From: Cyanidioschyzon merolae
Lineage: Eukaryota
Assembly (NCBI GenBank): GCA_000091205.1
Contig: AP006502.2
Reading direction: 5' to 3' (one strand)
Length of the DNA: 64,000 nucleotides
Each line of letters begins with the position of its first letter. The first letter of the stretch is position 1. Of the stretch, positions 11,181 through 63,327 are shown in pieces. The notes below the pieces were generated by a model. That model was given only the letters and a program-made list of their open reading frames with translations. It searched no databases and was not told the DNA's origin. The translations under genes were made by a program, and so were the position numbers.

Positions 11181-11212
<32 letters not shown>

Positions 11213-21963: not shown

Positions 21964-22446
21964 AACCCAGCTGCATAAACGCTGCTTGTACTTCGTTTTC
22001 GCTGATCTAAATTGTTCTGTTCTGTTCTCACGTAGCTTGATAAGTGGACCAGGTGTGATGAAGAGCGACCCCTTGCACATCAACACTGGCCTTCAACGCC
22101 CGGCGTGAAAGTGCTCTATACACAAAGCAACCCCGTTGCCGCTTGCGATCCGGCTAAGAGCTCGTCAAAGTCTTCCTCGGGCACTAAAGTCGGTATCCTG
22201 CGTGCAGATCGCCCAGTTGCACTCACTCCAAAAGTTTTCACGCAATCGTACGGAGCTCGAGTCCTTCCAGTAAAGATACCAAGCAAGCAACCGTCTAGAA
22301 GACTAGGGCGCAATCCGTTTGTGTAAGCGCGGCGGCTGCGGCGACGACGATTGCAGCAACTGCAGCGCTTGCAAAGCCGCCGCAGCGGTACACCCATGTC
22401 AGAATGAAATGGAAGGGGCCGACTGGCTCAAGCAAACAAATTCGAG

Positions 22447-23431
22447 TTATGGTCTCTTCCCGATGTTATGAACATCAGCCTTCGCGGGCTTTTTCTGTGA
22501 CTGCTTCATATTCCTCTCCCTTATCCGTGGCTTTACATACACTGCTCTCGTCCTTCCTTCCCGCTCCGTTGTCAGCTGGAGAAGGATGTTGATGGCAGCG
22601 ATCAAGTCGCGATTTTGCTGGTTCAAGCTGATGTCAACGCATTTCATGCAAATCCGAAAGTCGCAATCAAACCTTCCTTTGCCATTTCTAGCTTCCTTGA
22701 TCGGAGCCTCTTTGCGCCATGAGCAGCAAGGACGCTTCATCGTGGTCGCGTGTTCCAACGAATCCACCACTTCGCCTCCCCATTGCCGGCCCCGCCACGC
22801 ATGAACGCTTGCCCCTTCGCTCGATGCAGGCCCTTGACAGGCACAGAGGGCTCCTCACAATGCCCACCTCCGGTTTGGCGACCGCTGCAGCACTCGACGA
22901 TCACGGGCGTTTCCTGCATAATCAGCCCGGCAAGTGCTGTGTCCACTGCACGCACACGTGCGAGCTCTTCCATACCATACAGGGTTTATGGAATGAGATG
23001 CGGCCCTAGATGAAACGAGCTCCGGAGGGAAGGCTCAGGGCTGAAGAACACGTCGAGAAATTTCAATCTTTGTACGCCCCTTTCGTGCGAAACGGCAACG
23101 CATACTCTGACCAACGCAATCACTGTGATGACTAAAGTGAGCGTCCAAGACCCTTTTCCATGCGAACGGAATAGAAAGGGACCTGCGGGGGTATGGTACC
23201 TTTCGTGAGTTGCACTGTGCTTGCGTCGAATGCCGATTCGCGAAGAGCCTCAGAGAGCAGGGAATTTGTCTTCCATACAGAATCGATTAGTTGGCACGAC
23301 AATTTCAGGGAACGTTTGGCATGAGCAGTTGAAGAAGCCGTCCAGAGACGACGTCGAGTATTTTCACTCGTCAATCCAGCGGCGCGAATTGCTGCGCCTA
23401 AGACTTGTCCTGCAACGGATAAGATCGACAA
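22447..23431 (-). pseudogene. TnpB/Fanzor-like element, family I, diverged copy. Zn-finger remnant and RuvC-III are retained, and upstream frames are broken.
   Basis: ORF 22447-22770(-) reads '...CDFRICMKCVDISLNQQNRDLIAAINILLQ'. ORF 23132-23431(-), 'TRRRLWTASSTAHAKRSLKLSCQLIDSVWKTNSLL', is homologous to 'TRRRSSTACSQAQAASSLDLSSQIIDSVRRMKTPLF' of the young copies. The 3' nucleotide motif 'cgcgggctttttctgtgactg' lies at 22483-22503. Confidence 0.55.
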
Positions 23432-23921
23432 CTTGAAATATGCGTGATTCTAGCACGCTACACGAACGTAGGGAGGAAGCGCAGAGGTCGTCATTTATGA
23501 ATCGAACAACGATATCGCTTAGTTTACGAGCTATTCATTGGGACGTCGCGAATCATCTTCGAGTCGGCGACTGCGCGACTGACAGCGGCATAACGTTGAA
23601 GGCACCGCTCCGAAAAGACGACTAGGAGTCCTGAACGTATGCATGAATTCGTAAACCCTCATTGCTGTGCTTCGAATATCGAGGTTGTACATGTAAAAAC
23701 AGTTCGGGAAAATTCGCTAGGCAGCAACGGAGCAAGCTGCTCAGTGCTTCATTTTAGTTTGTACGGGTGCGGCCAAGTCCTTCCCAGTAGCTCCTTCCGC
23801 AAAAGGCCGCACTGTTGCGTTCAAGTGAGAATCTCTGTCATATTGCGACATCTAATGAAACAGTATGCGCTTTTCCTGTCATGCTTAGTATCTCCATTCG
23901 AAAGCAGTCGCACTGCAGCCA

Positions 23922-29222: not shown

Positions 29223-29611
29223 CAAGCTGAGCGAGTTGTAGGCGCTGACCTCTACGCTCCTCCGTAAACAAGATCTTCGCGTTAAAAAACGTTCTGATCA
29301 GGGTGCGGGCGAGCATCTCTGTTGGCCAGACACATTTACAGATCCCACCGGAAGGAAAGCTTATCGACGTATGGAATTGGTCCCTATATTACATCCATGA
29401 GGTTTTTATGAGGATTGGGGCATTTAGGGCACGCAAGACGCTGTTCTTGTGCGGTGGGGAACCACTGGAGTACCCTCCATAGAAATCATCACTCGTGGAG
29501 CGTGTCCAGACGTCGCCTAGTGTCTGCATGTTCTGAGCAATTTCAGAATAAAGTGGAATTAGTCCGCTTCTAAAAACGTTCCCGCGAATGTTTCTACCTC
29601 TTCACATTGTG

Positions 29612-30590
29612 ATCGACGCCAGCCAGCGCGGGATTTTTCTGTGACTGGTTCTTCTCCCCGCTCTTATCTCCAGCCTTCAATACGTCGTGCTCTCCTATCC
29701 GTCCAGCTCTGTTGCCAGCAGTCGAGGGATGTTGATGGCAACGTTACAGCCACGATTTCGCCGCTTCCTCTTGTTTTCTACGTATTTCATGTACAGACGA
29801 AGGTTGCAATCAAGCCTTTGCTTCGCATTTTCACCCTTTTTCTGTTCAACTTTAATGCGCCCACATAGCGGTGGTAGGTGACTGCGCTCAGGTCCTCACG
29901 AATGTCCACAACGCCTAATCCGCCAAGCGCCGCCCCGTGGTACATGCGCGCTTGCTTTGTCGCCCGGTGAATGCGCTTGACGAGCGCCGGCGGCTCCCGT
30001 AGATGCCCTCCGGTCCTGCGCCCTGTGCCGTGCGCTACGCTCACGCGCTTTCCCTGAGTAGTCCCGCACGCGAGCACTCTGGCAGCTGCACGCGCAAGCG
30101 CTCGCTGTTCCATTTCAGTCGAGGATTGGTGGTGCGCGATGCTTTCCATGTTGAAATAAGTACCTGAAAAAAGCCCAAGATTGGGAACACATCCAGATAT
30201 TTCGATCAGTCTGTTCCGTCCTCGTGCACAACTGAGACGCACTGTCCACTGGAGGCGATCGCTGCGATGATTCAAGTCTTAGAACAAGATTCTTTTCCAC
30301 GCAGACAGAAGATTCGGGGCCCCCCCGGAGAACACTCGAGAGGTGTCATGCTGCCGTTGGGTGCCATTTCATCCATTGCCACAAAGAGAGGAGTTTTCAT
30401 CCTTCGGGCAGAGTCGATTATTTGGGATGACAAGTCCAGTGAACTCGCGGCCTGGGCTTGTGAACAAGCCGTCGAGGAACGACGTCGAGTTGTTTTCATC
30501 GTCACTGGAACGGCGCTCAGTGCTGAACCCACGAGTTGCCTTGCAACAGAGAGATCGAAATTCGGAGAGTGCGTGATTTGAGCATGTTAC
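29612..30590 (-). mobile_element. TnpB/Fanzor-like element, family I, copy A (truncated at both ends; ~98-99% identical to copies B and C)
   Basis: It shares the same set of ORFs as B and C (MNHRSDRLQW..., MEKNLVLR..., MIQVLEQ...). The RuvC-III region reads 'RNRGCNVAINIPRLL' on the minus strand (29725-29757). Its flanks differ from those of B and C. Confidence 0.6.
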
Positions 30591-31845
30591 ATGTAATTAG
30601 AGAATAAGATCGGAGGCTTGTACGTATAAAATGGATACTGACAGCGTTTTTTTCTATCCCCTGCTCGAGTACGTCGAGAATCGTCTCAGTATCGGTGACG
30701 TAAAGTATTCCACTGGAAAGGCCTCGTAGATGTCGCGCCCAAACAGATTACAGAGACTCCTAATGCTACGTACGAATTCGTAAGCCTCTAGAGCAGCATT
30801 TTGAATCTGGAGGCTCTGGATCAAAAATGACATTCCTAAAATATATTGAAAAATAGGAAGAAAGCAAGCTTTTCGGGGCTGCATCTCAATTTGTCAAGGC
30901 TTTAGCGAGCCGGCCAATCGTCAAAACACTACAAAGAGCATCACTCAAATCTTTAGTTAGTGGAGAAAATCGTATGAACAGCAATTTGTAATATTTCCTA
31001 TATTCCGGAAAGTCCCTTTCATTCAATACAAACTCATTTCCAGTTAATTCCATCGAGCAGAATCGAAGAGAGGGCTATATGGGTATTCCCCGCGGAAATT
31101 ATGTGCATAAGAGCCGCTGTTACTGATGTACGACAGAAAATGTGGTCATTGACGTGTGATATATGCACCAGTGAATTCTGAAACACCTGTACCAATACAT
31201 CTATTTTGTTTGCATTTTTTCTATTATTCTAAGCAAAAGCTTCCATCTTTTGGATTGGGCAGAGGCAGCAAAAACCTCTATGCTGTGAATGGTGGCATGG
31301 GAAGAAGAGCTCTAAAAGTGCAAGTCATTCATTCCGCCGTCAACAGCTGGATAAGGCACAGTTCTGATGGACCTAATCGTACACGTCGTGCATCAAAAGA
31401 AACAGTACTTACAAATTCCATAGAGGCGACTCTCTTTTCTTCCTTCAAATCCAGTTCATAATTTCCCAAAAAACACCACCAAAGAAGCCGCAGGATGAAA
31501 AGTTCTTCTACCGCGGATGCAAACGGCGATGAAGAGGCACAGATGTGCAAAGAAGAAAGCACGATCCTGTGATACTCGCGCAACCTATAGCAAATTGTCG
31601 AATTTGAACTAATACGTGAACTCTTATAATTATAATCCTTGACCTGATTTGTGTTCCGCGCATAGGTGAGCGTAATGGAGTGTTTTCTCGTGGTCTATAG
31701 GAGATACATTTGAAGTACGTTCATTTTCAAAAATAGAAAGTCCAAGTGAAAGCTGCTTATGTGGAAATATTGGGTCCTGGAGAGCCGTCATCGCCGATTA
31801 AGTGAGAAAAGAAGTTCTCGCCGACTATAGAGCGAAAAAGAGCAA

Positions 31846-32238
31846 GTGACGAAGATGAAGGCGAATAGATGGAAAGAGAGCCAAAAAAAGATATTTGCCC
31901 GACGGAACGACGACGAGAGTTTCGTGGCACAGAAGGTACCCATTCGAGGAATTTTCGGATGGGTGCGCTCAACCCACGTAAATGCATGCATGGATTTGTT
32001 GAACCGACACGTCAACGCCGCCGTCAATATCGGAAGAAATGTGGTACTAAAGAAGAGACCCAAGGAGCTGGCGCGAACCAACTTTGTGCGGCGACCTCTT
32101 ATAATCGAAGTTCACAAACAGAGGCTTAAGCCGATAGCAGGCGTCGGGTTGAAATATGCTGGGAAGCATCTGCGGGTAGTTGTTAATTTACCCACGGTCG
32201 CGACACTTTTTCGCTCCGTCGAGCAGTACCAACGATAG
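31846..32238 (+). pseudogene. TnpB/Fanzor-like relic, family II, C-terminal fragment
   Basis: 'STHVNACMDLLNRHVNAAVNIGRNVVLKKRPKELARTNFVRRPL...RLKPIAGVGLKYAGKHLR' is a RuvC-III motif with D replaced by H, plus the family-II tail. An upstream 'ICP...C' sits in another frame. Confidence 0.45.
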
Positions 32239-41885: not shown

Positions 41886-43966
41886 GGCACGCTTCCAGCG
41901 CAACAGAGAACCGCCCGCGTATTGACTGCTACGAAGTTCTTTGGCCGTGGAACGCCCGCGGTACTTAAACACAATTTGGCCCCACCGCTGCGTGGAATCG
42001 AGTGCTTGTCCAAAGCGAGGAGCAAGCGATCGAAATTATTATGCAACGTACACTAAAGATCTTAGGCGAGATCCCTGTAACATAGGTTCTTTATTGGATA
42101 GCGAAGGAGGACTGCATTCCTCCTTCTGGTAAGTCATACGACAGTACTCGGATAGCTGAGGAACCCTGAAAGAGAAAAATACGTGCGCTCAGCGCCAAAA
42201 ACCGGATTCTCATAAACAGTTTTGGTTTTACAGTAGAAAACGACCCGTTGATCACAGTGCACAAAGCAAAAGTGACGACGGTAGCCACCAGGGGCGTCTC
42301 TTTTTCTCGACAGCTTGTTCATATAGTTCTGCAAGCACTAGGATATGGTCGCAAAAAGGGTCCAATTTCATGCACGGCCATCTTCCACTGAAATCGCAAG
42401 TACAGATTTCCTGGAACGAAGCGATTGGTTTGAAGCACGGAGAAGTCGCTTTGTTTTTTCAGTCGATTAGACGTCCTTCCGATGAAATGGTCGAAGCCAA
42501 GGTAGGTTCTCGCGGAGCAGAGAACACGTTCTATGTACAATAGATCTCGAGGAGAACGAAGACGTCATCATCGGTTCTAGCTGCAGTGGAGTCATTTGGC
42601 GGCCTCAGTTTCGCTCGCAGAGAATGCTCGTCCACGAGTGCCGACTTTATCGAATCGTTGAAGACTTTTTCCCTGATGTCTGACAATGCCCTTCTGTTTG
42701 AAAATGCGATATTTCACCATTCCCTTTGTGTTCGACGTTTTCCAGACTCTATCGGGGAGTAGAACTGCTTCTCATACCTCCGAAAGCTCAGTGTTTCAAC
42801 CGCATCGAAAGAGTGTTTGCTATCGTGATATGTAATGATCGCTCCTCTGAGAGAATCCCTGAAGTACTTTGCACGGTGACACCAGGACATGCGTCGTTGT
42901 TGTTCCGCAAGTGCTTCTCCCTCTGAAAAGATCCTCATCTATGGGCAAAAAGAAGTGAGTTCATTTTCAAAAATAGAAAAATGAAGGAAAGTTATGGATA
43001 TGTAAGTCGAAGATACTGGAGGCCCGGCGTTGCCGGGATCCAACAAACGAAAAGAGTGCCGAGCCCAGAGGAACAGGAAAAGACGAAGAAGCAAAAGGGG
43101 CGCTAGATGTCGAGAGCGACACGATAGGGGACACTACGACGAGATTGTACTGAAAGCCTATCTTGTACGCCATATCAAGGATTCGCACTATCAAAAATTA
43201 AAAAAGCCATCAGAAACCGTAGCCCGTCCAACTCCAGATTCGTCGACGAAGAGACATCACCCAGGAGCACGAATGGAGATTCTGTGATCCGTGCTGTTCT
43301 GGGGCTTATCAACCCAACAGAAAATGTATCAGAGATATAAAATGGTGCTATCCCCTCATCCTGCTCTATTTCGTGTTCCTGAACCGAGAACTACAACGCA
43401 AGAAGGAGATGGAGCCGTGTGGGAAAAAATCAAGAGTCGTTGGAACGGAAGGCTTTCCTAATGGATAAGCGCTTCAACGTCGTTCCGTTATGCAACATCA
43501 AGTGGCACGTTGTGGCAACCATCGCAAGCGTCCTTTACGGCATCATGGAGATCTGTCCGGAGTTCGATGTAAGCAGGGATGAATTTACGGGTGAAAACAG
43601 GGAAACTCTTTGGAAGCGCACCTTCGATTTCAAACGTCTCAACACGAGCAAGTGAAAGGTATGCTCGGGGACGATCGAAAGCGATGGGGTATCTAAATGT
43701 GGACACTATTGGCACTTTAAATTGGATCGTTCTATTTTGTCTTCGGCTTCGCCCCCGCCGAAACGTGAAGACACAAGGAGATGGATCCTGCAACGCAGGA
43801 GGTGCAGGAGAACGACTTTGTCATCGGCGTGGAGCCCTGAAATACGAATGTCATGACCATCGCTGCTCCCATGCGTGAGGAAGATGGCACTGACGGCAAC
43901 TTACGACAAAAAGACATCCGTCTTTTAAAGTTCTCAAGAACGAGATATTATTGAGAATCGGGAATT

Positions 43967-44718
43967 ATGAATGCATGGAAAAAAAGTGAGGCATGGAGTG
44001 CAGGAGTGAAGGAGCATCGGGAAGCGATCAGCCGGGTGACGAGCCGCGGAGCGCACTTTCAAACTTCTCGTGAATTCATGAAAATTCGCGCTGCTCATGT
44101 CGCGGAGCTGTGGAGAGAGTATACAAAGTCCCGGTGGGCTCGTCAGCATATGAATCTGTATTGCTGGAAACAGCGTGCATTCGCAAAATTCTTCAATGCG
44201 TTGTGCGCTCTCACAGTTGATAAGAGTCAAAGGCTCGAAATAGCATAAACGCAGGGCCCTGTGTGCCCAGAAAAAGGAGCACACAAGCTTTGTCGAAATG
44301 AACATTCATGGATGGCACCCAGTGTCTTGTTCCGGTACGGATAGATGAATTCCGAACGTCATACGTGCACCATGAGCTGGGGTGTACAATTCAGAAGGTC
44401 GAGATGGAGCGAAGGCAGAGGAGCCCTGATGAGATAGAAAAGTACGGAGAGCTGAAAGATCATCGAACGGCGCAGAGGGCGCGAGTTCGAGGAATCCCTG
44501 CGTGAATGAGTTCCACCGGAGGCAATAAGCCAATGGAGTTCGTGAAGCGAGACTTAAACGCCGCGATCAATATCAGAAGATGTGCCCTGCTGAAGACGAG
44601 ACCTGCAGAGCTGACGCGATCCAAGTTTATGGGGCAGCCCCTTATGCCCGATACGTGCAGGAAGCAGCTGAAGCTGATGGCAGGGAGCCGATCAGAAAAG
44701 GCCGGGAGGCGCCTGTGA
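43967..44718 (+). pseudogene. TnpB/Fanzor-like relic, family II (Zn-finger region degraded; RuvC-III and tail retained)
   Basis: 'VRIDEFRTSYVHHELGC' resembles V-x-P-x-YTSQ-x-C-x-x-CG with its Cys residues lost. After a frame change comes 'EFVKRDLNAAINIRRCALLKTRPAELTRSKFMGQPL...KLMAGSRSEKAGRRL'. Confidence 0.5.
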
Positions 44719-44790
44719 GGGGGTGTGAATTTACCCCACATGGTCCTGGGACATTTTTTCTTTTACTGAGGATACTATATTTGTTTCAAA

Positions 44791-46135
44791 TTAAAATGGT
44801 CCGTTAAGCTGCGCGCACTGTTTCTGCACTTCGATTTTTCCGAACACTTTTCGATATACAGCCTCATCATCCAATGTACTGCGACCGGGGGCTCCGCTTC
44901 ATCTGTTCTTTAGGGCTCTCTGTCGTCATCTCGAAGTGTCGACTCCGGCTCCGTGCCGCTGGAGCTCGTTCAGCCACACCAACTGGGATGGTTCGCGGCG
45001 CCCCACGGGCAAGAGTTCGTGAAAGTACTGATATCACAACTTAATTTTTACTTAAGAGCTTCCACTCTATTTCTTTCCCCGACTTGCGCCATGCTCAAAT
45101 CACGCACTCTCCGAATTTCGATCTCTCTGTTGCAAGGCAACTCGTGGGTTCAGCACTGAGCGCCGTTCCAGTGACGATGAAAACAACTCGACGTCGTTCC
45201 TCGACGGCTTGTTCACAAGCCCAGGCCGCGAGTTCACTGGACTTGTCATCCCAAATAATCGACTCTGTCCGAAGGATGAAAACTCCTCTCTTTGTGGCAA
45301 TGGATGAAATGGCACCCAACGGCAGCATGACACCTCTCGAGTGTTCTCCGGGGGGCCCCCGAATCTTCTGTCTGCGTGGAAAAGAATCTTGTTCTAAGAC
45401 TTGAATCATCGCAGCGATCGCCTCCAGTGGACAGTGCGTCTCAGTTGTGCACGAGGACGGAACAGACTGATCGAAATATCTGGATGTGTTCCCAATCTTG
45501 GGCTTTTTTCAGGTACTTATTTCAACATGGAAAGCATCGCGCACCACCAATCCTCGACTGAAATGGAACAGCGAGCGCTTGCGCGTGCAGCTGCCAGAGT
45601 GCTCGCGTGCGGGACTACTCAGGGAAAGCGCGTGAGCGTAGCGCACGGCACAGGGCGCAGGACCGGAGGGCATCTACGGGAGCCGCCGGCGCTCGTCAAG
45701 CGCATTCACCGGGCGACAAAGCAAGCGCGCATGTACCACGGGGCGGCGCTTGGCGGATTAGGCGTTGTGGACATTCGTGAGGACCTGAGCGCAGTCACCT
45801 ACCACCGCTATGTGGGCGCATTAAAGTTGAACAGAAAAAGGGTGAAAATGCGAAGCAAAGGCTTGATTGCAACCTTCGTCTGTACATGAAATACGTAGAA
45901 AACAAGAGGAAGCGGCGAAATCGTGGCTGTAACGTTGCCATCAACATCCCTCGACTGCTGGCAACAGAGCTGGACGGATAGGAGAGCACGACGTATTGAA
46001 GGCTGGAGATAAGAGCGGGGAGAAGAACCAGTCACAGAAAAAGCCCGCGCTGGCTGGCGTTGGTGGCATCGGGAAGAGATCCGAAGCTGGGTTGATTCGC
46101 CCTCGTCAGCCGAGTGCAATCTTTCAATTTTTTGT
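44791..46135 (+). mobile_element. TnpB/Fanzor-like element, family I, copy B (full ~1.34-kb unit, about 99.5% or more identical to copy C)
   Basis: It has the same ORF set as A and C. The RuvC-III region 'KRKRRNRGCNVAINIPRLL' lies at 45916-45948. The 3' region 'ccagtcacagaaaaagcccgcg' lies at 46029-46050. Ends were defined by where identity with C stops. Confidence 0.65.
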
Positions 46136-47683
46136 CTCGCATGGTAAGGGGCTGTGTGGAGCGGCGAAGAAATGAGAGACGCTTCGTGACGCGCCCCGTT
46201 GCCTACAGTGCTAGGCGAATTATGCAGCCGCATACGCGCGATTTGTGAGCAAACATGCCCGTACATTCAAAATCATTCTGCGTATAGTTTATCTTAGACT
46301 GAGCCCGTACCCCTCTGGGCATACTGAGCTGAGATGCGCTCTGTCTATCATAGTACAGATCATGGAAAAAGCCGTGTCATGTGCTGCATGCAAAAAGGTA
46401 CTTTCTGCAGGAATCTTTGTTTTCTGATGCAGCGCGGTTTGAGCTTCGTTTTCAAATGGAACATTTAGTTGTAAAATATTAAGGACAACAGAGGGCCTGG
46501 CTTCATACGCGTTACCGAAGCCATTAAGGCCTAAATCCTGATGCGAAATTGCTTCTGGCCGTTTCTTGGAAAACGAACGGACTTCGAATGCTATTTTTCT
46601 GCATGTTCTTCCATTATGAGACAACAACCTTGGGACTTATCGTGCCCCTTATGTCTGCTACATGGTTTGCTATTCCAGGAGAGCCCCAACAGGAAAAATG
46701 TGCGTGAAATTCCACCGCGAATCTTTTGTGAGGCCTTGAATCATAGGGGCGCCTAAAATACAGAGTCTACGCTGCTTAAAATCCGAATGAAAATATCCTG
46801 CGCCCCTGGGAACGAGAGTGCTTTCCCGAAAAGAGGGGCCCTCTGGAGCGATTTCTTTGTTCTCTTCGATTGACAATTCTTGGAATGTGTGGATATTTTG
46901 AACGTATACGCAAAATCACGGGGAGTTACGCCCAACAAACTTGCACGCGTGAATAGTGGATGAGGTTCATTAAGGCGTAAATTTTTGGTCTTCGAGGTTC
47001 CCCTGAGCGCCTATTCCCAATCATGAAGTAAAGAATTTACATATCTCTCCTCACGCATCTAGCACTGTAAGTACACTCGCAACTTGTTTCCGAATGTATG
47101 ATCAGCCACTCTGAAGCTAGTCATGAAGAGTTCATTCGCAATGTCTGGCGCATTTTCAAGCCTTTCAAGGTCTGATACCCTCTAAATGATATGCCATGAG
47201 GAAGACGCGTCAAGTAGACTAGCACTTCCTGCGCAGTGATAGCCCACCTATTTGATTCACAAAAGAACCTTTGAGCGAAGTGAAAAATACATCGAGCTTC
47301 CGAGAAGCAGGTTCCGTACTCCGAAACGCAAACTTCAACAATGCCACGGTAATTGCCATATGGATGCCGACTATGTTGCGTGCAAGGCTCAGGAACTTGA
47401 TACAATCAAACATTTTCCACCAGGAAGAGCCTACACTCCAACCTTGTATCCAAAGCCTCACGCAGTTTGAAGAATTTCTTGTAACGATGCAACAATCGTG
47501 CTTCAGCTATTTTCTTCGTGTGAGGCCCGCAAGTATAGAAGTCAGCCCTCGCTCCCTTACATTCTCTCGGTAAAACCATTATTGAAGCTAGTTGCTGTAC
47601 GAAACAGGTTCCCAAGCAGAAGCTACACCTATAGGTGGAACTTTTAGAGTTAAGCGCTCGGTGGTGAAACCGCAACTCCCAGC

Positions 47684-48097
47684 CTAGACGTTGAAGGACT
47701 CACCACAGCCGCAGGTTCCCTTCGCATTCGGGTTCCGGAAAACAAACTCACTGGCCAGGTCGTTTTCAACGTAATCCATTTCTGTGCCAACTACGTGAAG
47801 CATAGCTCTTGGGTCTACGAGTACTCGAACCCTCCCGTCCGCAGAAACGACTTCCTCTTCGAAACGTCTCCTCTCCTTCGCGTAGTCGAGCTGGTAAGAC
47901 AGCCCATTGCAGCCGCGCTGCTTCAGGGACAGTCGAACACCGTAAGACTCGGGATGTTTTTCGAGAAGGGACCGCAAACGCTTCGCTGCGGCTTCCGTTA
48001 TAGTCATAGCGGCTCTGCTGCGACACATGGTCAGAAACAGTTGTGTGGAAATCAAAACTTTGATTGCAATCTTTCGCTTCGCTTCCGGATATGACAC
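47684..48097 (-). CDS. IscA/HesB (A-type carrier) iron-sulfur cluster assembly protein
   Basis: 'ITEAAAKRLRSLL...GVRLSLKQRGCNGLSYQL' and the C-terminus 'GTCGCGESFNV' are present. Confidence 0.8.
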   Translation of the reverse strand: MSYPEAKRKIAIKVLISTQLFLTMCRSRAAMTITEAAAKRLRSLLEKHPESYGVRLSLKQRGCNGLSYQLDYAKERRRFEEEVVSADGRVRVLVDPRAMLHVVGTEMDYVENDLASEFVFRNPNAKGTCGCGESFNV

Positions 48098-49110
48098 GTC
48101 GTCGCCTCGTCACGTTCAGCAAGGCTTGTACCATTGTACCCACATATGAGTGCTTCAACCGGTGCACTTACTGTAATTTTCGAAAAGATGCTTCGGGTTG
48201 GATATCACTCTCCAAGGCGGCTGAGATTGCGCGAACTAACCGGGACGCTGGAGCAACGGAAGCTCTCGTTCTTTCCGGAGAAGTCCACCCAAAAAGTTCC
48301 CTCAGGAGGCACTGGATAGCACACACTGTCGAAATCTGCAAAGTTGCCATCCAGAATGGCTTGCTGCCGCACGTAAACGTAGGACCACTCAGCTGGGGTG
48401 AAATGAAAGAGCTCACAAAGTTCAGCGTGAGTATGGGTCTGATGTTGGAACAAGTCACAGATAAGTTAATGGCAAGCGTGCACCGAAGAGCACCTTCGAA
48501 AGACCCCTCACTTCGCATCGAACAGTTGCATCTTGCGGGTCAGCTGAAGATACCTTTCACAACAGGAATTCTTGTCGGTCTCGGAGAAGAAGAATGTGAT
48601 TGGAAAACCTCCCTGAATTGTATAGCAGCGGTGCACAACAAATACGGGCATATCCAAGAATGCATCATACAGCCCTTTCGTCCTGGTGATCGTGGTTACA
48701 TTTCGGGCCCGAAATTGAATGCATTCCATAGCGAGGCCCTTCCGTATGTTGTGTCACTCGCTCGCAAGATACTACCGACAGAAATCGCTATACAGATTCC
48801 ACCGAATTTAGTACTGTCTGATACAGACCGCCGAAAGGGACTAGAGCTCGTGTTCCGGTGCCTCGAAGCAGGGGCGTCCGATCTCGGAGGTATTTCCCCT
48901 GTCGATGAAGTTAATCCGACCTATGCGTTTCCTAGTATTACATGGCTGAGAGAAGTTCTTTTACTAGAGGGGTTCGAGCTTATGCACCGTTTGCCTATCT
49001 ATGAGCAATATATTCCATGGATTCAGAAAGCAGAGAAATTCGAACATCTTCAAAGACTCTTTCCCGTATACAAGCAAGGCAACTCAGCCAAATCAACCCC
49101 GAAATCGTGA
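48064..49110 (+). CDS. Radical-SAM protein of the CofG/CofH (FO synthase) family, single-subunit size
   Basis: 'VTFSKACTIVPTYECFNRCTYCNF' has a C-x3-C-x-Y-C-x-F cluster, and 'DAGATEALVLSGEVHP' follows. These match CofG/CofH. MqnC/E and ThiH/HydG are lower-probability alternatives. Confidence 0.5.
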   Translation: MQSFASLPDMTRRRLVTFSKACTIVPTYECFNRCTYCNFRKDASGWISLSKAAEIARTNRDAGATEALVLSGEVHPKSSLRRHWIAHTVEICKVAIQNGLLPHVNVGPLSWGEMKELTKFSVSMGLMLEQVTDKLMASVHRRAPSKDPSLRIEQLHLAGQLKIPFTTGILVGLGEEECDWKTSLNCIAAVHNKYGHIQECIIQPFRPGDRGYISGPKLNAFHSEALPYVVSLARKILPTEIAIQIPPNLVLSDTDRRKGLELVFRCLEAGASDLGGISPVDEVNPTYAFPSITWLREVLLLEGFELMHRLPIYEQYIPWIQKAEKFEHLQRLFPVYKQGNSAKSTPKS

Positions 49111-49321
49111 TTTTTTGACAAGCTCTGATAGGAGACCTTCACAAATGAGCCCACGTATCTATAACGGCTCGCAAAATATGTGCTGCAAAGGGCGACGTGA
49201 ACATTGCTAACTAGGCGAAGATTGTTTTTCGTAGAGGGTTGGCTGAAATTAGTCAAGTTGCAAAATTTTCGAAGATTTTTACCTTTTCAGAGATGGTTTC
49301 CGTCACTTCACCAGTGTAAGC

Positions 49322-50665
49322 CAACAAATGAACGATCGCACTCGGCTGACGAGGGCGAATCAACCCAGCTTCGGATCTCTTCCCGATGCCACCAACGCCA
49401 GCCAGCGCGGGCTTTTTCTGTGACTGGTTCTTCTCCCCGCTCTTATCTCCAGCCTTCAATACGTCGTGCTCTCCTATCCGTCCAGCTCTGTTGCCAGCAG
49501 TCGAGGGATGTTGATGGCAACGTTACAGCCACGATTTCGCCGCTTCCTCTTGTTTTCTACGTATTTCATGTACAGACGAAGGTTGCAATCAAGCCTTTGC
49601 TTCGCATTTTCACCCTTTTTCTGTTCAACTTTAATGCGCCCACATAGCGGTGGTAGGTGACTGCGCTCAGGTCCTCACGAATGTCCACAACGCCTAATCC
49701 GCCAAGCGCCGCCCCGTGGTACATGCGCGCTTGCTTTGTCGCCCGGTGAATGCGCTTGACGAGCGCCGGCGGCTCCCGTAGATGCCCTCCGGTCCTGCGC
49801 CCTGTGCCGTGCGCTACGCTCACGCGCTTTCCCTGAGTAGTCCCGCACGCGAGCACTCTGGCAGCTGCACGCGCAAGCGCTCGCTGTTCCATTTCAGTCG
49901 AGGATTGGTGGTGCGCGATGCTTTCCATGTTGAAATAAGTACCTGAAAAAAGCCCAAGATTGGGAACACATCCAGATATTTCGATCAGTCTGTTCCGTCC
50001 TCGTGCACAACTGAGACGCACTGTCCACTGGAGGCGATCGCTGCGATGATTCAAGTCTTAGAACAAGATTCTTTTCCACGCAGACAGAAGATTCGGGGGC
50101 CCCCCGGAGAACACTCGAGAGGTGTCATGCTGCCGTTGGGTGCCATTTCATCCATTGCCACAAAGAGAGGAGTTTTCATCCTTCGGACAGAGTCGATTAT
50201 TTGGGATGACAAGTCCAGTGAACTCGCGGCCTGGGCTTGTGAACAAGCCGTCGAGGAACGACGTCGAGTTGTTTTCATCGTCACTGGAACGGCGCTCAGT
50301 GCTGAACCCACGAGTTGCCTTGCAACAGAGAGATCGAAATTCGGAGAGTGCGTGATTTGAGCATGGCGCAAGTCGGGGAAAGAAATAGAGTGGAAGCTCT
50401 TAAGTAAAAATTAAGTTGTGATATCAGTACTTTCACGAACTCTTGCCCGTGGGGCGCCGCGAACCATCCCAGTTGGTGTGGCTGAACGAGCTCCAGCGGC
50501 ACGGAGCCGGAGTCGACACTTCGAGATGACGACAGAGAGCCCTAAAGAACAGATGAAGCGGAGCCCCCGGTCGCAGTACATTGGATGATGAGGCTGTATA
50601 TCGAAAAGTGTTCGGAAAAATCGAAGTGCAGAAACAGTGCGCGCAGCTCAATGGACCATTTTAAT
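49322..50665 (-). mobile_element. TnpB/Fanzor-like element, family I, copy C (full ~1.34-kb unit, inverted relative to B)
   Basis: Its 162-aa, 104-aa and 61-aa ORFs are identical to those of B. The RuvC-III region is identical to B on the minus strand. Confidence 0.65.
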
Positions 50666-52309
50666 CTCTCACCGAGCTTGAACCGTCGAGAAATTCTAGC
50701 TGGAAGCGCGAAATTTGCGCGCGCGTTTGCATAGATTTTCGATCGCGATCTGAATTGTTCTCTTTATTTGGGAGCAATGTTTCATAACGTGCTTAGGCTC
50801 CTTACAAGTGTCGTGGCAGAAAACCGAACGGTCCAGTTCTGTTTGACGGGATTCTCGAACAACAATATCGCCGGAAGTTCGAGGGATTTGCATTCAGAAC
50901 AGAATATGTATTTCTTACGATTTCTTTGCTGGCAGCTTCGGGACCAGTGAGGTGGTTGGTTAATTCCAGTGAATCACTAATGTACAGCGAACCTTTATCG
51001 TTATATACTTGCACAGGAAAGCGTTTTCCTGTATTTACACTCGATTCACTAACCTCAATGGTTTGCTGTGCCATTCCATGCCAGAACCATGCTCCAGGCC
51101 AGAATACCATAAGTCTCATCTGGGTCAATTACTCTCTCTCACGGCAATACTTTAGCGTTTCAGGAGAATGGATTGACTGAGTATTGAATGATTCCCTGGG
51201 AAGTTAACTCGACTCAAAGATGCTGAACGCTTCCAATGCACAAAACATTTCCGGACTTTGATCGAGGCGCTCACTTCTCGTTGCGGAGAATATTTGAGCG
51301 AATTTTTGCTGGTAGGAGCACACCCGAGCAAGTCTCTCACCTAGCTTTGCACTCCCATTTGACGTCTGCTCAGCTTGCTGGGGATCATCTGGTGAATCAG
51401 GCTCGTTTCACTTGTTTCCCCAGCAGCAATTTCAGTTTGCATTCTGCGCTCGTAATAAGTTTACGCCGCCTTGAATTCAATGGTGGTACTCGTAGAGAAT
51501 CATCTCTGCAATCAGTTCTCGCGCTCGTAGAAGGAACAGAAGAGCATCTTTGTACGCTATAACTCCAAGATCGTCACTGTCTACCTTCGAAACACAAGGC
51601 ATATCTGCCATTTCTTTTTTTGACTCCACTGAAGAAAAATGGCGAATGAACGCTTCCTGCATCCGTACAATCGACTGCATTGCGTTCCCCAGCGCAGGTC
51701 AACTAACCTCTAACGAAGATCGTCTTCAAGAGCCAGTTGGACTTTCAGGTCCTCTCTGGATCTAACCTCCACAGCATGCCACTCAGATGGATACGGTGCT
51801 CCAACCGTCGCTATCGGTTGTAACCCCGTCATTCCAAACGTTCGTGTGCCTCCTGACGCCCATCATGCTTCACTCTAGTATAAAGCCCTCGAAAATTTGC
51901 ACACTATCATCTGGATTCTGTTCAACTCTTTCATTCCGCTCTCTTGATTTTGAGATAAGGCAACCGCGCGATGTATTTCTCTTCATTTATCTTGGACGGT
52001 TGAAAATCAGCATCGTTAGTTGAGTCAAGTTTAAGTTTCACAAAGTGCATGCAGCCTGGTCTTCCGTCGGTCTCCATTCTCCCTGCGTACTCCTTACGAT
52101 TTCCTGCCCTGTAAGGCGAAACGTCGAATCAGCTCTACCCATGATCTTCGGAAAGCTGTTCGAGTGACCCGTGCTCGCTGCCAGAGACCGGCCGTAGCCC
52201 ACTGAGTGGAACGTATAGTACAGAGGAGTCTGCTGTGATTAGTGGGCGTTGAAGTGACGAACGAGGGCCGCTTCGAGCAGACGCTTACGGAGTCGAGTGC
52301 ACCCGCATT

Positions 52310-52620
52310 GGTGGACGGAGTCTGCTTCGCTCTCGAGGGCTCTCTTGAGGCAAATATAATGGGGCGAGAGATGCAAGCAAGGCAGGTACCCCGTTAACGC
52401 CATGGTATGGATAAGACTTGTGCCGATCCTCTCGAGGGCTCTTTTGAGGCGAATATAATGGGGCGCGGAATGCAAGCAAGGCAGGTATCCCGTTGACACC
52501 ATCGTATGGATAAGACTTGTGCCGATCCTCTCGAGGGCTCTCTCGACGCGAATATAGTGGTGCGCGAATTGCAAGCAAGGCAGGTATCCCGTTGACGCCA
52601 TCGTATGGATAGGACGTGTG
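52310..52620. repeat. Tandem repeat, ~93-bp unit with at least 3 copies
   Basis: 'tgccgatcctctcgagggctct[c/t]t[t/c]gaggc[a/g]aatataatggggcg[a/c]g[a/g]gatgcaagcaaggcaggta[c/t]cccgtt[a/g]ac[g/a]ccatggtatggataagacttg' repeats. It sits in an AT-rich, gene-free stretch. Confidence 0.8.
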
Positions 52621-61247: not shown

Positions 61248-61439
61248 GCAGCAAAGCTAGTCCTTCTTTCCTAGTCGCATAGAAAACTCTGCGGCATTGA
61301 TCCTAATTTGCTAGTGCGCGTTGTACCCTCCAATACCGTGGCGGCTGCAGGCAGATGTGACTTCACACCCATATTAGACTAAACTGCAACAGGCTTTCAA
61401 ACAAAGCTGCGCAAACTAAAGTTTGATTTTGTTCCCGCT

Positions 61440-62300
61440 CTAATAAACACTAGCCTTTGTGGCTTGTTCTGCGATTGGGTTTGCTCCCTCTAACTTATTT
61501 CGGGCTTTGAATGCACTGGTCTATCCTTTTCCTCAAAATCCATCGTCTGCAGTTCGGGGATATTGATGGCAGCGTTGAGGTCCCGATTTCGCTGCTTCCC
61601 GCAATTGTCGACTCAGTCGATGCACCGGGCGGTAGATAAGTTCAGAGCTTCGCTCTCCATTTTCACCTTCTTTATGTACAGCGTGGAGCGCATATCGCAG
61701 AGTGACATATGGCTGCAGTCAGGTATTCAAGCATTTCCGACATACCTCATTCTTCTGCGCAAGGTACCCTACGGCGCGTGCAGGCATGGTTCATCGCTCC
61801 ATCATGCCATTGACGGGCATAGAAGATGCCCTCGGTGCTCTCTTCCGTTTCCGCGTATGGTGCCGTGCGCTACGAGCATGGGGGATCCTCCCTGTGAGAA
61901 CTCTGTTCTCTGGATACGCAAGCGCGCACTGTTCCATAAGATAGAGGATTCATGGAACACAATATCGTACATGATGGAACGCGTACTCGAAGGAATATCC
62001 GGGCTGGATATCACTCTGCGAAATTTCGATACGACTAAGCTACCCTCGTGCAAAATGTCACGTACTGCCCACTGCAAGCGGTCGCCGCGTGGACTGACGT
62101 CCAAGTCCGAGACCTTTTTCCATGTAAACAAAAGAGACGAGAAAAGCAACGAGCAGATATTGAGTGCCATTTCTTCGATACCGAAGAAGAGAGGAGGACG
62201 TATTTTCGAATCGAATGGTTTCTTTGATGTGGCAAGTTTAGTGGACTTTTGGAATGAGCTTGCGAAAAAAGTCGTCTAGGGACAGCGTCGAGTGTTTTAC
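61440..62300 (-). pseudogene. TnpB/Fanzor-like element, family I, diverged copy with an intact RuvC-III motif
   Basis: The minus strand reads 'VDNCGKQRNRDLNAAINIPELQ' at 61559-61624. ORF 61802-62170(-), 'GDRLQWAVRDIL...VAHGTIRGNGREHRGHL', is homologous to 'SDRLQWTVRLSC...VAHGTGRRTGGHL' of B and C. The 3' motif 'ccagtgcattcaaagcccg' lies at 61501-61519. Confidence 0.55.
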
Positions 62301-63327
62301 GTCTTCATTCTAATGGTGCGAGTTGCTGCGCCCCGGGTCGGCTCGAAGCACAGAGGTCCAAAACGTGAGGAATATGTGAATTGAGCATGATAAGTGTGAG
62401 AAAAGGAGAGAGGCGGAGGTTTGTACCCATGAACTAGATGATGATGACGGCTATTCTACGAACCTGAATTCGACGGTATCGCGAAGGATCTTAATTACGG
62501 TGACATCCCGGTTTCCAGCAGCAAGGAGCGGATAGAGCTACTCCGAAACGACGACCGGGAATCCAAATACTCCGAATCAATCCATAAGCCCCTACTGCGG
62601 GACCTGGAGTTCCGAAGCCGCACATCCATAAATGGTCGAAAACATCGCAAGTCAGGAACAGAGCGGGCAGTTCAACTTTTCATTTTAATCTGACAGGGGC
62701 TAGGCCAGTCTCTGGATGAATCACAAATAGCAAGGAGACATCCTAGCAAGAGGAGAGCATCATTTGCAGAAAGTTCTGCGAAGATATTAAGGCGCGCATG
62801 CAGAAGTCCCCAGATATCCGGAACGTACACGAGCACCAGTTCGTCCACGAAGCGTTCATGACGAATCCTGGTCAGTTTGGAATATGCAAAGAAATATTCT
62901 AGCACACGCCAATCACTCAATGCGTTTTGCACCCAATTCAGCCTCTGGAACTCACGCCCTCGTTGGACACCCCACAGACATTCTGTCTCCATGCGACATC
63001 CGCAGATGCGTCAGCAACGACTCAGCGAGCGTCCGCAGTAGGCTCAATGCCACCTGCATCGCTGGATCTTTCAAGTTGCCGTTGTTTAGGACCAATGAGC
63101 CGGCCTCCAAGGCTGCGTGAATCGCGAGCACAGGGGAACAGTCCCTATGAGTTTCCGCGCAAACCGCAGTCGGTGTACGAGCGTACTTGAAGATGATTAC
63201 CATTCATGAGAAGACCCTCATGCAACGCTCCTCTGTGGCGACAGTAGACATGACAGCTCCTCGCATGACTGCATCAGAACCGGGTATATTCTTTGGCAGC
63301 GCCTTACCCTAGTATGTACCCAGGTCT

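What the first reader, a model, noticed from the sequence alone, without database searches (positions are those of the whole stretch)
45949..46135. Nucleotide-conserved ~20-nt motif just 3' of the RuvC-III codons in five family-I copies, a candidate guide (omega) RNA scaffold
Family-I proteins have diverged strongly between the old and young copies. Despite that, the non-coding stretch about 80-100 nt downstream of the RuvC-III motif keeps a near-identical core. The young copies B, A and C carry 'CCAGTCACAGAAAAAGCCCGCG', with one substitution in A. The 22.5-kb copy carries 'cagtcacagaaaaagcccgcg' at 22483-22503. The 61.5-kb copy carries 'ccagtgcattcaaagcccg' at 61501-61519. 'catcgggaagaga' is also shared between B and the 22.5-kb copy.

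In TnpB and Fanzor systems the guide RNA is transcribed from exactly this position: it overlaps the 3' end of the ORF and runs to the right end of the element. Conservation that is stronger at the nucleotide level than at the protein level fits a structured RNA well.
Basis: seen in the sequence. Interest (0 to 1): 0.8.

Follow-up and report, generated by a model that had tools for sequence, protein, structure and literature searches.

The report
Dead Fanzor transposon tail codons
The conserved 20-base motif is a leftover of the last codons of a dead Fanzor nuclease gene in a decayed Tc1/mariner-type transposon of the red alga Cyanidioschyzon merolae. The better guide-RNA candidate lies just downstream of it, at the transposon's right end.

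Summary
The window is Cyanidioschyzon merolae 10D nuclear DNA. The motif CAGTCACAGAAAAAGCCCGCG is real in four copies. The claimed fifth copy (61501-61519) is about 40 nt out of register; the true homolog is 61452-61478 and is only about 70% alike.

The five "family-I" copies are dead elements of about 1.37 kb, bounded by terminal inverted repeats (TIRs). They derive by internal deletion from a [DDE_3 transposase + Fanzor1] Tc1/mariner-like transposon. Intact, apparently active relatives were recovered from metagenomes. The three "young" copies are old insertions homogenised by gene conversion.

The motif is not non-coding. It lies in the ancestral reading frame (…KQSQKKPAKAGV..GKRPKL*), in the lysine/arginine-rich C-terminal tail.
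- Among 16 independent lineages it is moderately conserved: 0.60 mean pairwise identity, against a background of 0.53 and 0.70 for RuvC-III.
- It shows no covariation.
- It cannot be aligned in intact relatives, whose tails vary.

There, a 7-bp helix UACGCCN/N'GGUGUA shows three independent compensatory switches. That segment is the plausible omega-RNA scaffold.

This is a new member of a known kind and of low to moderate interest.

The parts
44773..46148 (+). Copy B: a complete but dead family-I element of about 1.37 kb. It is a TIR-bounded, internally deleted derivative of a DDE_3 + Fanzor1 Tc1/mariner-like transposon.
   Evidence: Ends were placed by aligning to the family consensus TIRs. 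Homology among three window lineages spans about 44790-46130. tblastn with intact Fanzor1 relatives hits 45611-45996.
44773..44803 (+). Left TIR of copy B (decayed). The family consensus is TACACCCATGTCAGAATAAAATGGAACA.
   Evidence: The 5' ends of 14 lineages align to the reverse complement of the 3' terminal block.
45611..46091 (+). Relic of the C-terminal part of the Fanzor1 ORF: GxG/VPVK block, Zn-finger/TNB, RuvC-III and K/R tail. It carries frameshifts, in-frame stops and D->G in RuvC-III (RNRGCNVAINI).
   Evidence: Six-frame translations, a weak Pfam PF07282 hit and tblastn with P0039/P0040. The position of the ancestral stop comes from a 15-lineage alignment.
45916..45948 (+). RuvC-III codons (R N R G C N V A I N I). 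This is the best-conserved block of the 3' region.
46028..46049 (+). It corresponds to codons (N)QSQKKPA of the ancestral K/R-rich tail.
   Evidence: It is in frame with the ancestral stop position at 46089-46091: 60 nt from the first motif codon CAG at 46029 to that stop position.
46067..46095 (+). Start of the right-end-specific nucleotide-conserved block. The family consensus is GGGAAGAGACCCAAACTTTAG; deep relatives have GAAGACCC.ACACTTTAG.
   Evidence: The block is coding in some lineages and lies in the 3' UTR in others (L040, L041, L042, L043).
46096..46102 (+). TTCGCCC, the decayed homolog of the invariant subterminal block TACGCCN. This is the 5' strand of the proposed terminal helix.
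46116..46148 (+). Right TIR of copy B (decayed). The family consensus is ACCTGTTCCATTTTATTCTGACATGGGTGTA. Its last 7 nt form the 3' strand of the proposed helix, and homology stops here in every lineage.
49307..50682 (-). Copy C. It is identical to B only over the internal tract that corresponds to B 44807-46117. Its motif is at 49406-49426.
29533..30904 (-). Copy A. It is near-identical to B only over B 45090-46060. Its motif, with G->T, is at 29627-29647.
22389..23771 (-). Old copy o22. Its frame is uninterrupted from RuvC-III through the motif (22483-22503) to a TAA just after GKRP.
61364..62703 (-). Old copy o61. It keeps RNRDLNAAINI.

Best explanation
The motif is a relic of coding sequence. 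It corresponds to codons …K-Q-S-Q-K-K-P-A… of the lysine/arginine-rich C-terminal tail of a Fanzor1 (TnpB-like) nuclease. I infer that this tail acts as a nuclear-localisation signal.

The gene was carried by a Tc1/mariner-type transposon with ~30-nt TIRs, TA at both ends and a DDE_3 transposase. In this window only five dead, internally deleted copies of about 1.37 kb remain. Three of them (A, B, C) look young only because ectopic gene conversion has pasted the same internal tract into old insertions.

The motif's moderate conservation reflects shared descent plus past selection on the tail among the master copies. Local conversion may also contribute.

The nucleotide-level functional element of this transposon clade begins about 20-40 nt downstream of the motif. 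It consists of:
- a right-end-specific block (GAAGACCC.ACACTTTAG … GAATACGCC);
- a spacer of variable length;
- the right TIR.

UACGCCN pairs with the last seven nucleotides, N'GGUGUA. By analogy with characterised Fanzor1 systems, I infer that this segment is the omega-RNA scaffold, with a guide-proximal stem-loop, and that the guide is read from the flanking DNA. In the window copies it is decayed and has no intact nuclease partner.

Shown: the coding frame, the element anatomy, the gene conversion, and the deep conservation with one covarying base pair. Inferred: the NLS role, transcription, and omega-RNA function.
For: Origin. Window proteins are identical to C. merolae 10D BAM83243, BAM83240 and BAM83236 on a 1,621,617-bp contig.

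Coding frame.
- The consensus of three window lineages gives one open frame from the Zn-finger through RNRDLNAAINI to …KNQSQKKPAKAGVHNIGKRP*.
- Over 58 codons in 15 lineages, frame 0 has 13 internal stops, against 45 and 28 in the other frames. Five lineages are fully open. Four lineages still end at a shared stop, …KRPKL/V*.
- Intact relatives P0040-P0050 (712-863 aa) end with NRDFNAAINIL..EL.GEERP.YLC(P/T) followed by a variable K/R-rich tail.
- tblastn of the P0040 tail reaches 22489, inside the o22 motif.

Fanzor identity.
- Pfam TNB (PF07282) hits 8 of 12 relatives.
- Foldseek of the P0042 model hits only SpuFz 9cez and PpFz 9cf1, at E about 3e-6.

Transposon anatomy.
- An identical P0042 sits next to a DDE_3 gene in about 8-9 different flanks, with exact ends.
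- TIRs were found in four further lineages and in family I.

Gene conversion..

The motif is not exceptional..

Right-end block.
- It is conserved whether or not it is coding.
- There is no equivalent at the left end beyond the TIR.

Terminal helix.
- Pairs 1-6 are invariant.
- Pair 7 is C-G, U-A or A-U in 10 of 11 lineages, with three independent switches on the protein tree. Permutation p = 4e-4, not corrected for phylogeny.
- The left TIR does not share the pair-7 base in L030, L040 and L044.
- The helix appears in the MFE fold of 4 of the 7 consensus and intact-relative sequences folded.

Literature. The Fz1 omega-RNA is transcribed from the 3' IR. It is 75-150 nt long and overlaps at most 17 codons in GtFz1 (PMC10432273, PMC11423790). 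Fanzors carry NLSs (PMC10530073).
Against: - The codon-position signal is weak. The pos2 < pos1 < pos3 pattern is only a trend (p = 0.045 for the tail, not significant for motif-to-stop), because most divergence is neutral decay after insertion.
- The motif is nevertheless the second-best conserved 21-nt block of the 3' region within family I. A variable, NLS-like tail would not obviously predict that.
- An omega-RNA of 130-150 nt would still reach the motif. Coding and RNA roles can overlap, so coding does not exclude an RNA role.
- The terminal-helix evidence rests on one covarying pair. Single-sequence folds are no more stable than shuffles (z from -0.97 to +1.31).
- RNAalifold returned no consensus structure for the deep set. 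That MAFFT alignment was visibly misaligned.
- No expression data were available.
Confidence: 0.72

Rival explanations
1. The motif is part of the omega-RNA scaffold, for example the 5' strand of a 7-bp first stem-loop. It overlaps the 3' end of the ORF and is conserved for RNA reasons.
For: - The motif lies 100-120 nt from the element end. That is within the 75-150-nt range of known Fz1 omega-RNAs (PMC11423790).
- The family-I consensus folds GUCACAG with UUG.UGAC into a 7-bp stem capped by AGCC/GGCU. Across 15 lineages 70.5% of cells pair, against 30-55% when the partner is slid.
- Fz1 SL1 is reported to have 7 bp (PMC11423790).
- The motif is the second-best conserved block.
Against: - Pairing equals the column-shuffle mean (70.9%). 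No pair shows more compensatory change than shuffles.
- The helix was derived from the consensus, which inflates the comparison with the slid controls.
- RNAalifold finds no pairs. Fold z-scores are -0.97 for the consensus and -0.31 for copy B.
- The equivalent region of intact relatives is a tail of variable length and sequence with no nucleotide conservation.
- The reported overlap with the ORF is at most 17 codons (GtFz1), whereas the motif lies 14-20 codons before the ancestral stop, with ~55 nt of 3' UTR after it.
- There is no Rfam match.
Confidence: 0.18
2. The exact 21-nt identity between the B lineage and o22 results from short-tract ectopic gene conversion (concerted evolution) among copies, rather than from any selection.
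For: - Conversion is demonstrably active among these copies. The B/C tract is 44807-46117 and the A/B tract is 45090-46060, ending 11 nt after the motif.
- The tract differs between strains (L007 against window copy A).
- The B-o22 window scores 27/30, against about 20/30 in the flanks.
Against: The core CAGTC…AAAA…GC is also recognisable in 13 further lineages from other loci. The block is therefore moderately conserved family-wide. No flanking tract of raised B-o22 identity longer than about 30 nt is seen.
Confidence: 0.08
3. The conserved block is a transposase-binding site, meaning a terminal or subterminal repeat present at both ends.
For: The last ~30 nt of the finding's neighbourhood (46116-46148) are indeed the right TIR, mirrored at the left end.
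Against: The motif itself occurs only at 3' regions. It is never seen near a left end, even allowing up to 3 mismatches. Left ends share only the TIR.
Confidence: 0.02

Closest known systems
Fanzor1 in Tc1/mariner elements, e.g. Spizellomyces punctatus Spu-1 / SpuFz1 with its omega-RNA (Bao & Jurka 2013, PMC3627910; Saito et al. 2023, PMC10432273; Xu et al. 2024, PMC11423790)
   Same: - A TnpB-like nuclease with a GLDPG-type RuvC-I, a rearranged Glu (VWEH.TT), a Zn-finger/TNB and RNRD.NAAINI.
- The Foldseek best hits are SpuFz and PpFz.
- The gene sits inside a TIR-bounded element with TA at both ends.
- Many non-autonomous or 'ghost' derivatives exist.
- A conserved segment specific to the right end abuts the right inverted repeat, where the omega-RNA of SpuFz1 is made.
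- The left flank carries a TAM-like base (C before TA here; CATA in SpuFz1).
   Different: - No RNA, RNP or cleavage data exist here.
- The 3' UTR is very short in some lineages (40 nt in L030), so any scaffold must overlap codons.
- The proposed guide-proximal helix uses the outermost TIR nucleotides.
- The window copies are pseudogenes lacking the N-terminal two-thirds of the protein and the transposase.
CMe-1A, the Fanzor1 family reported in C. merolae (Bao & Jurka 2013)
   Same: Same genome and the same protein superfamily. Both are old, diverged copies (about 80% identical to their consensus).
   Different: CMe-1A is described as about 3 kb, without TIRs and unclassified. Family I is 1.37 kb with clear TIRs and DDE_3-encoding relatives. 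The window's 'family II' relics (…RIDEFRTS…KRDLNAAINIRR…) may be CMe-1A. I did not test this.
TnpB omega-RNA (reRNA) of IS200/IS605, e.g. ISDra2
   Same: The guide RNA is encoded at the 3' end of the nuclease gene, overlaps its last codons, runs to the right end, and takes its guide from the flank.
   Different: The transposase is different (a Y1 HUH TnpA acting on ssDNA hairpin ends), as are the ends. There is no sequence or Rfam similarity.

Membership tests
Fanzor1 / TnpB-like nuclease (the gene that holds the motif) | RuvC-III motif (R)D.NAA.NI | tested here: met
   o61 has RNRDLNAAINI and o22 has QNRDLIAAINI. A/B/C have RNRGCNVAINI, with the catalytic D lost. Intact relatives have RNRDFNAAINIL.
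Fanzor1 / TnpB-like nuclease (the gene that holds the motif) | Zn-finger/TNB domain and RuvC-I / rearranged Glu | tested here: met
   Relatives match PF07282 in 8 of 12 cases. The best is 25.3 bits, against a cut-off of 26.3. They carry GLDPGRVNLYTTA, VWEH.TT.KCHRC and DRDFR.CEHCS. The window consensus gives only E = 0.065, and RuvC-I is absent from the 1.37-kb unit.
Fanzor1 / TnpB-like nuclease (the gene that holds the motif) | Fold similarity to solved Fanzor structures | tested here: met
   Foldseek of the P0042 model gives 9cez (SpuFz) at E = 2.6e-6 and 9cf1 (PpFz) at 2.8e-6; the next hit has E > 2. Caveats: the model is poor (pLDDT 56), and there are no sequence-level PDB hits.
Fanzor1 / TnpB-like nuclease (the gene that holds the motif) | Intact ORF in this window | tested here: not met
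   All five copies carry stops and frameshifts and lack the N-terminal ~540 residues. A protein search with the stitched window sequence found nothing.
omega-RNA (Fanzor/TnpB guide RNA), as claimed for the 20-nt motif | Lies at the 3' end of the nuclease gene, running to the right end, with a variable flank as guide | tested here: met
   The motif is 100-120 nt from the element end. Flanks differ immediately after GGTGTA in the distinct insertions of one element. This is also expected of any transposon.
omega-RNA (Fanzor/TnpB guide RNA), as claimed for the 20-nt motif | Conserved secondary structure supported by covariation | tested here: not met
   RNAalifold predicts 0 pairs. The motif hairpin and the 7-bp motif stem pair no better than shuffles. 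Power is limited because the copies are decayed.
omega-RNA (Fanzor/TnpB guide RNA), as claimed for the 20-nt motif | Nucleotide conservation independent of coding | tested here: not met
   The motif is in the ancestral frame and has no nucleotide counterpart in intact relatives.
omega-RNA (Fanzor/TnpB guide RNA), for the downstream segment 46067-46148 | Nucleotide conservation independent of coding, specific to the right end | tested here: met
   The GAAGACCC..TTAG..GAATACGCC block is conserved in 11 lineages. It is coding in some and in the 3' UTR in others. It is absent from left ends.
omega-RNA (Fanzor/TnpB guide RNA), for the downstream segment 46067-46148 | Covariation-supported helix | tested here: inconclusive
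   In UACGCCN/N'GGUGUA six pairs are invariant. One pair shows three Watson-Crick types in 10 of 11 lineages, with three independent switches. There is no support within family I, and fold z-scores are not significant.
omega-RNA (Fanzor/TnpB guide RNA) | Transcribed and bound by the nuclease; guides TAM-dependent cleavage | not testable with these tools
Tc1/mariner-IS630 (DDE_3) DNA transposon | Terminal inverted repeats | tested here: met
   Family I has TACACCCATGTCAGAATAAAATGGAACA at both ends. L040, L041, L042, L044 and L030 also have TIRs.
Tc1/mariner-IS630 (DDE_3) DNA transposon | DDE_3-type transposase gene | tested here: met
   Met in relatives only: PF13358 at E = 1.6e-25 for a 317-aa ORF upstream of Fanzor in L030-L039 and L040. 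It is absent from the window copies.
Tc1/mariner-IS630 (DDE_3) DNA transposon | TA target-site duplication | tested here: inconclusive
   All elements begin with TA and end with TA. No empty site was available to separate a duplication from the terminal nucleotides of the element.

The most novel reading that the evidence does not exclude
Thermoacidophilic red algae (Cyanidiales) and their hot-spring relatives may host a still-active Tc1/mariner-Fanzor1 clade with two unusual features. First, the omega-RNA is unusually compact, about 65-115 nt. Second, it is partly built from the transposon's own terminal inverted repeat: the outermost seven TIR nucleotides pair with an invariant subterminal UACGCC block to form the guide-proximal stem. 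One DNA sequence would then serve both transposase recognition and guide-RNA folding. The invariant C 5' of the left TA would be part of the nuclease's TAM.
Probability: 0.3. Interest if true: 0.5.

Novelty: new member of a known kind. Interest (0 to 1): 0.3.

Why it matters
For the finding as written, little changes. It is a decayed coding remnant in a dead transposon, and Fanzor guide RNAs at 3' ends have been known since 2023.

The by-products are more useful.
- They classify a C. merolae repeat family as an internally deleted Tc1/mariner-Fanzor1 element.
- They show that apparent "young copies" in this compact genome can be gene-conversion products.
- They point to intact, multi-copy relatives in metagenomes, with precisely defined ends and a candidate compact omega-RNA. 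If active, these would be Fanzor nucleases, possibly from hot, acidic habitats (the host organisms and sample environments were not identified), that can be tested directly for genome editing.

Tried and rejected
1. Exact-protein look-ups of two long window ORFs found nothing. The third identified the organism.
2. A protein search with a stitched family-I translation gave no hits. The family has no called or intact proteins close enough.
3. A scan of viral contigs for the motif gave 0 hits.
4. The pattern GAATACGCC N{22,52} GGTGTA in viral contigs gave 120 hits, all apparently chance; none carries the TIR core.
5. A scan of viral contigs with the Fanzor alignment gave only 22-23% identical giant-virus homologs, useless for RNA alignment.
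6. The codon-position variability test had too little power in decayed copies.
7. Indel-length statistics were uninformative and are not used.
8. RNAalifold on MAFFT alignments gave 0 pairs for both sets. The deep-set alignment misplaces the TACGCC block in three lineages, so this is a weak negative.
9. Two alternative hairpins within the TIR (CCAU/AUGG and CCUGUU/AACA..GG) showed no covariation.
10. Profile search of the PDB by sequence and NCBIfam gave nothing.
11. The AlphaFold model was poor in the RuvC half, so only the top Foldseek hits are used.
12. Rfam gave nothing.
13. An attempt to identify the host of the intact elements through a neighbouring Skp1 gene was uninformative.
14. I considered that families I and II form one composite element because they are adjacent twice. 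I rejected this: a host Alba-domain ORF separates them at one locus.
15. I considered the antisense ORF 45808-46266 as a real gene. I rejected this: it has no family and no record, and it extends beyond the element.
Full report
**Where the window comes from.** Three window ORFs are identical to Cyanidioschyzon merolae 10D proteins (BAM83243, BAM83240, BAM83236) on a 1,621,617-bp contig. The other long ORFs are ordinary intron-less nuclear genes: BRCT, CDC50, an RHD3-like GTPase, pyruvate dehydrogenase E1 and others. Bao & Jurka (2013, PMC3627910) already reported Fanzor1 elements in this genome. Their CMe-1A family has about 150 copies of about 3 kb, lacks TIRs and is unclassified.

**Checking the observation.**
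- CAGTCACAGAAAAAGCCCGCG occurs exactly at 46029-46049 (+), 49406-49426 (-) and 22483-22503 (-). It occurs with one substitution at 29627-29647 (-). None is expected by chance.
- CATCGGGAAGAGA is at 46067-46079, 49376-49388 and 22453-22465.
- The sequence quoted for the 61.5-kb copy exists at 61501-61519. In the alignment it corresponds to B 45985-46004. The true homolog of the motif is CCAATCGCAGAACAAGCCACAAAGGCT at 61452-61478, about 15/21 identical with one gap.

**The "young" copies are gene-conversion products.**
- B and C are identical from 44807 to 46117, with two mismatches at 44803 and 44806.
- The outermost 17-34 nt at the left and about 31 nt at the right, still inside the elements, are diverged though homologous.
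- A equals B only over 45090-46060, with three mismatches. Its remaining 3' part is about 60% alike.
- Identity tracts that stop inside the element on both sides are what ectopic gene conversion produces. Recent transposition would copy the termini as well.
- The window therefore offers three independent lineages: A/B/C, o22 and o61.

**What the copies are.** Self-comparison shows that family I is a unit of about 1.35 kb, present five times. Conceptual translation shows a decayed TnpB/Fanzor C-terminus: a GxG…VPVK block, V.V.E..T…C..C, F.C….C..C and RNRDLNAAINI. Every copy has frameshifts and stops, and A/B/C have lost the RuvC-III aspartate. A protein search with a stitched translation found nothing.

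A metagenome scan used a translation that ended at RuvC-III, so retrieval did not depend on the motif. It returned 27 loci.
- Some are orthologs of the window copies in related strains (L003-L007, L016).
- About 13 are further independent family-I lineages.
- One more distant relative carries an intact ORF (L027). With it as query, intact proteins of 712-863 aa were found.
- These carry GLDPGRVNLYTTA, VIIGYGTGRGNGGGHKGEP.VPVKAMY, VWEH.TT.KCHRC, DRDFR.CEHCS and RNRDFNAAINIL.
- Pfam TNB (PF07282) matches 8 of 12.
- A low-confidence AlphaFold model of P0042 (pLDDT 56) matches only two PDB entries by Foldseek, the Fanzors SpuFz (9cez) and PpFz (9cf1), at E about 3e-6.

**Transposon anatomy.**
- P0042 is encoded, with identical protein sequence, directly downstream of a 317-aa DDE_3 (PF13358) transposase gene in ten contigs. 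They show at least eight different left flanks and eight different right flanks. This looks like an active multi-copy element.
- Comparing these copies gives exact ends. The element is 3476 nt. It starts TACAATCTTGTTATG… and ends …AACATAGGTGTA, 40 nt after the stop codon, with an imperfect ~30-nt TIR.
- TIRs of the form TACACC…AAAATGGAACA were found in four further lineages.
- Family I has the same design. Its left end, TACACCCATGTCAGAATAAAATGGAACA, is the reverse complement of its right end, …TGTTCCATTTTATTCTGACATGGGTGTA.
- The window copies are B 44773-46148, C 50682-49307, A 30904-29533, o22 23771-22389 and o61 62703-61364.
- tblastn shows that they keep only the equivalent of residues ~540-730 of a 765-aa protein.
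- They are internally deleted, non-autonomous derivatives of a Tc1/mariner-type Fanzor1 transposon.

**The motif is ancestral coding sequence.**
- The consensus of the window lineages gives one frame from the Zn-finger through RuvC-III to …ELEGKERAVYLKPEIRERNKNQSQKKPAKAGVHNIGKRP*.
- With 15 lineages the ancestral stop is the TAG of CAAACTTTAG, giving …GKRPKL*. Frame 0 has 13 internal stops over 58 codons, against 45 and 28 in the other two frames. Five lineages are completely open.
- The tail matches that of the intact relatives: EL.GEERP.YLC(P/T) followed by a K/R-rich segment that varies in length and sequence.
- tblastn with P0040 aligns into the o22 motif.
- The TAG at 45979-45981 and a 1-nt deletion are lesions of the A/B/C lineage. 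From the motif to the ancestral stop position (46089-46091), copy B is still in frame.
- The K/R-rich tail is plausibly a nuclear-localisation signal. Fanzors are known to carry NLSs (PMC10530073). This role is an inference.

**How conserved is the motif?** Across 16 independent family-I lineages, the 21-nt motif window has a mean pairwise identity of 0.60. All windows of the 3' 273 consensus columns average 0.53 (sd 0.08), and the RuvC-III codons reach 0.70. The motif is the second-best non-overlapping block. It is somewhat better kept than its surroundings but not exceptional, and not better than the protein core.

**Is there RNA structure at the motif?**
- RNAalifold on 15 lineages predicts no pairs.
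- I tested a hairpin AGCC/GGCU and a 7-bp stem GUCACAG/UUG.UGAC that appears in the consensus MFE fold. About 70% of cells pair, more than with slid partners. This equals the column-shuffle mean, with no excess of compensatory change.
- Fold energies are not better than shuffles. The z-score is -0.97 for the consensus and -0.31 for copy B.
- Rfam has no match.
- Decayed copies give little power, so this is absence of support rather than disproof. The intact relatives, which are the informative ones, have no alignable counterpart of the motif.

**What is conserved at nucleotide level.** I aligned the 3' ends of eleven lineages: L030, L045, L041, L042, L043, L168, L040, L044, L169, L027 and family I. 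Locus GC content ranges from 33 to 56% in the eight loci measured, and protein identity falls to 36%. The common architecture is:

[GA(A/T)(G/C)ACCC.AC(A/G)C(T)TT…] - [GAATACGCC] - spacer of 0-45 nt - [TGTTCCATTT…(A/C/T)GGTGTA].

- The first block is the end of the ORF in some lineages and lies after the stop codon in others (L040-L043). It is therefore conserved as nucleotides.
- Left ends share nothing beyond the TIR, so this is specific to the right end.

TACGCC is complementary to the terminal GGTGTA, with one G·U pair.
- Pairs 1-6 are invariant.
- Pair 7 is C-G, U-A or A-U in 10 of 11 lineages, and C·A in one.
- On a neighbour-joining tree of the proteins this needs three independent double changes. 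The mismatch lineage is sister to a U-A lineage. Permutation p = 4e-4, not corrected for phylogeny.
- In L030, L040 and L044 the left TIR does not share the pair-7 base. A shared transposase-site consensus therefore does not explain the covariation.
- The helix is in the MFE fold of 4 of the 7 consensus and intact-relative sequences folded.
- Within decayed family I it shows only consensus-level complementarity.

**Most likely mechanism.** In characterised Fanzor1 systems the omega-RNA is transcribed from the 3' inverted repeat. It is 75-150 nt long, has a first stem-loop and one or more further stem-loops before the guide, and overlaps at most 17 codons in GtFz1 (PMC10432273, PMC11423790). 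It overlaps the TIR (PMC10530073).

By analogy, I infer that in active members of this clade the segment from the GAAGACCC block to the right end is the scaffold. That is 65-115 nt. The UACGCCN/N'GGUGUA stem-loop would sit next to the guide, and the guide would be read from the flank.

In 14 of 14 insertions from five lineages the base 5' of the left TA is C, with no mirror at the right. This fits a TAM-like requirement (SpuFz1 uses CATA), or the C may be an element nucleotide.

In the window this apparatus is a decayed relic with no intact nuclease.

The motif is best explained as relic codons of the Fanzor1 C-terminal tail. Its apparent youth and copy number are inflated by gene conversion. 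A role as the 5' part of a long omega-RNA cannot be excluded; I put it at about 0.2.

Fanzor1, its Tc1/mariner association, 'ghost' derivatives and 3' omega-RNAs are all known. This is therefore a new member of a known kind. The more interesting lead is the set of intact, multi-copy relatives and their compact right-end element.

Noticed in passing
window 44807-46117 vs 50648-49338; 45090-46060 vs 30586-29616: Copies B/C and A/B share perfectly or near-perfectly identical internal tracts. The boundaries of these tracts lie inside the elements, and the termini stay diverged. This indicates ectopic gene conversion between old insertions 3-16 kb apart. In the metagenome ortholog of copy A (L007), the B-like tract extends further 5' than in the window.
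   Followed up: partly
window 24680-25243 (-), 31631-32149 (+), ~42500-44724 (+): A second family of Fanzor-like relics (…RIDEFRTS…, KRDLNAAINIRRCALLKTRPAEL…). It lies next to family I twice. It may be the published CMe-1A family. Its own 3' end was not analysed.
   Followed up: no
window 46149-49306: B and C lie tail-to-tail around two host genes: an Fe-S cluster biosynthesis ORF (47684-48097, -) and a radical SAM ORF (48064-49110, +).
   Followed up: partly
L030-L039, L040, L041, L042, L044 (left flanks): In 14 of 14 insertions from five lineages, the base immediately 5' of the left terminal TA is C, often as TC. The first base after the right TA is not constrained. This is either an asymmetric, TAM-like target requirement or an extra element nucleotide.
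   Followed up: partly
L027 4903-6735 (also L026, L028): An intact 610-aa ORF (P0039) joins a low-complexity, non-Fanzor N-terminal half to a Fanzor C-terminal half. A frameshift makes it read through the right TIR into the flank. This may be a chimeric or exapted gene.
   Followed up: no
L041 713-3342, L042 256-2837 vs L030 431-3906, L040 1778-5392: The same clade exists as TIR-bounded Fanzor-only elements (about 2.6 kb) and as DDE_3 + Fanzor elements (3.5-3.6 kb). The transposase gene has been lost, or was never gained, in some lineages.
   Followed up: partly
L040 ~5340-5360, L169 ~2645-2660: A small self-complementary insertion (CCCUUCGGG or CCUUCGG) sits inside the conserved subterminal block in one subclade. 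This is the kind of change seen in loops of structured RNAs.
   Followed up: no
L030 and L037: Two contigs carry the same element with the same 3' flank but different 5' flanks. The cause is either recombination between copies or an assembly chimera.
   Followed up: no
window 52330-52626; 11101-11407; 16782-17040; 63254-63387: Tandem repeats: 3 x 99 nt, units of about 81-96 nt inside a long ORF, 2 x 126 nt and 2 x 67 nt. They are unrelated to the finding.
   Followed up: no
window 23922-24452 (-): An Alba-domain ORF lies between the family II relic and copy o22. The two relic families are therefore separate insertions there.
   Followed up: partly
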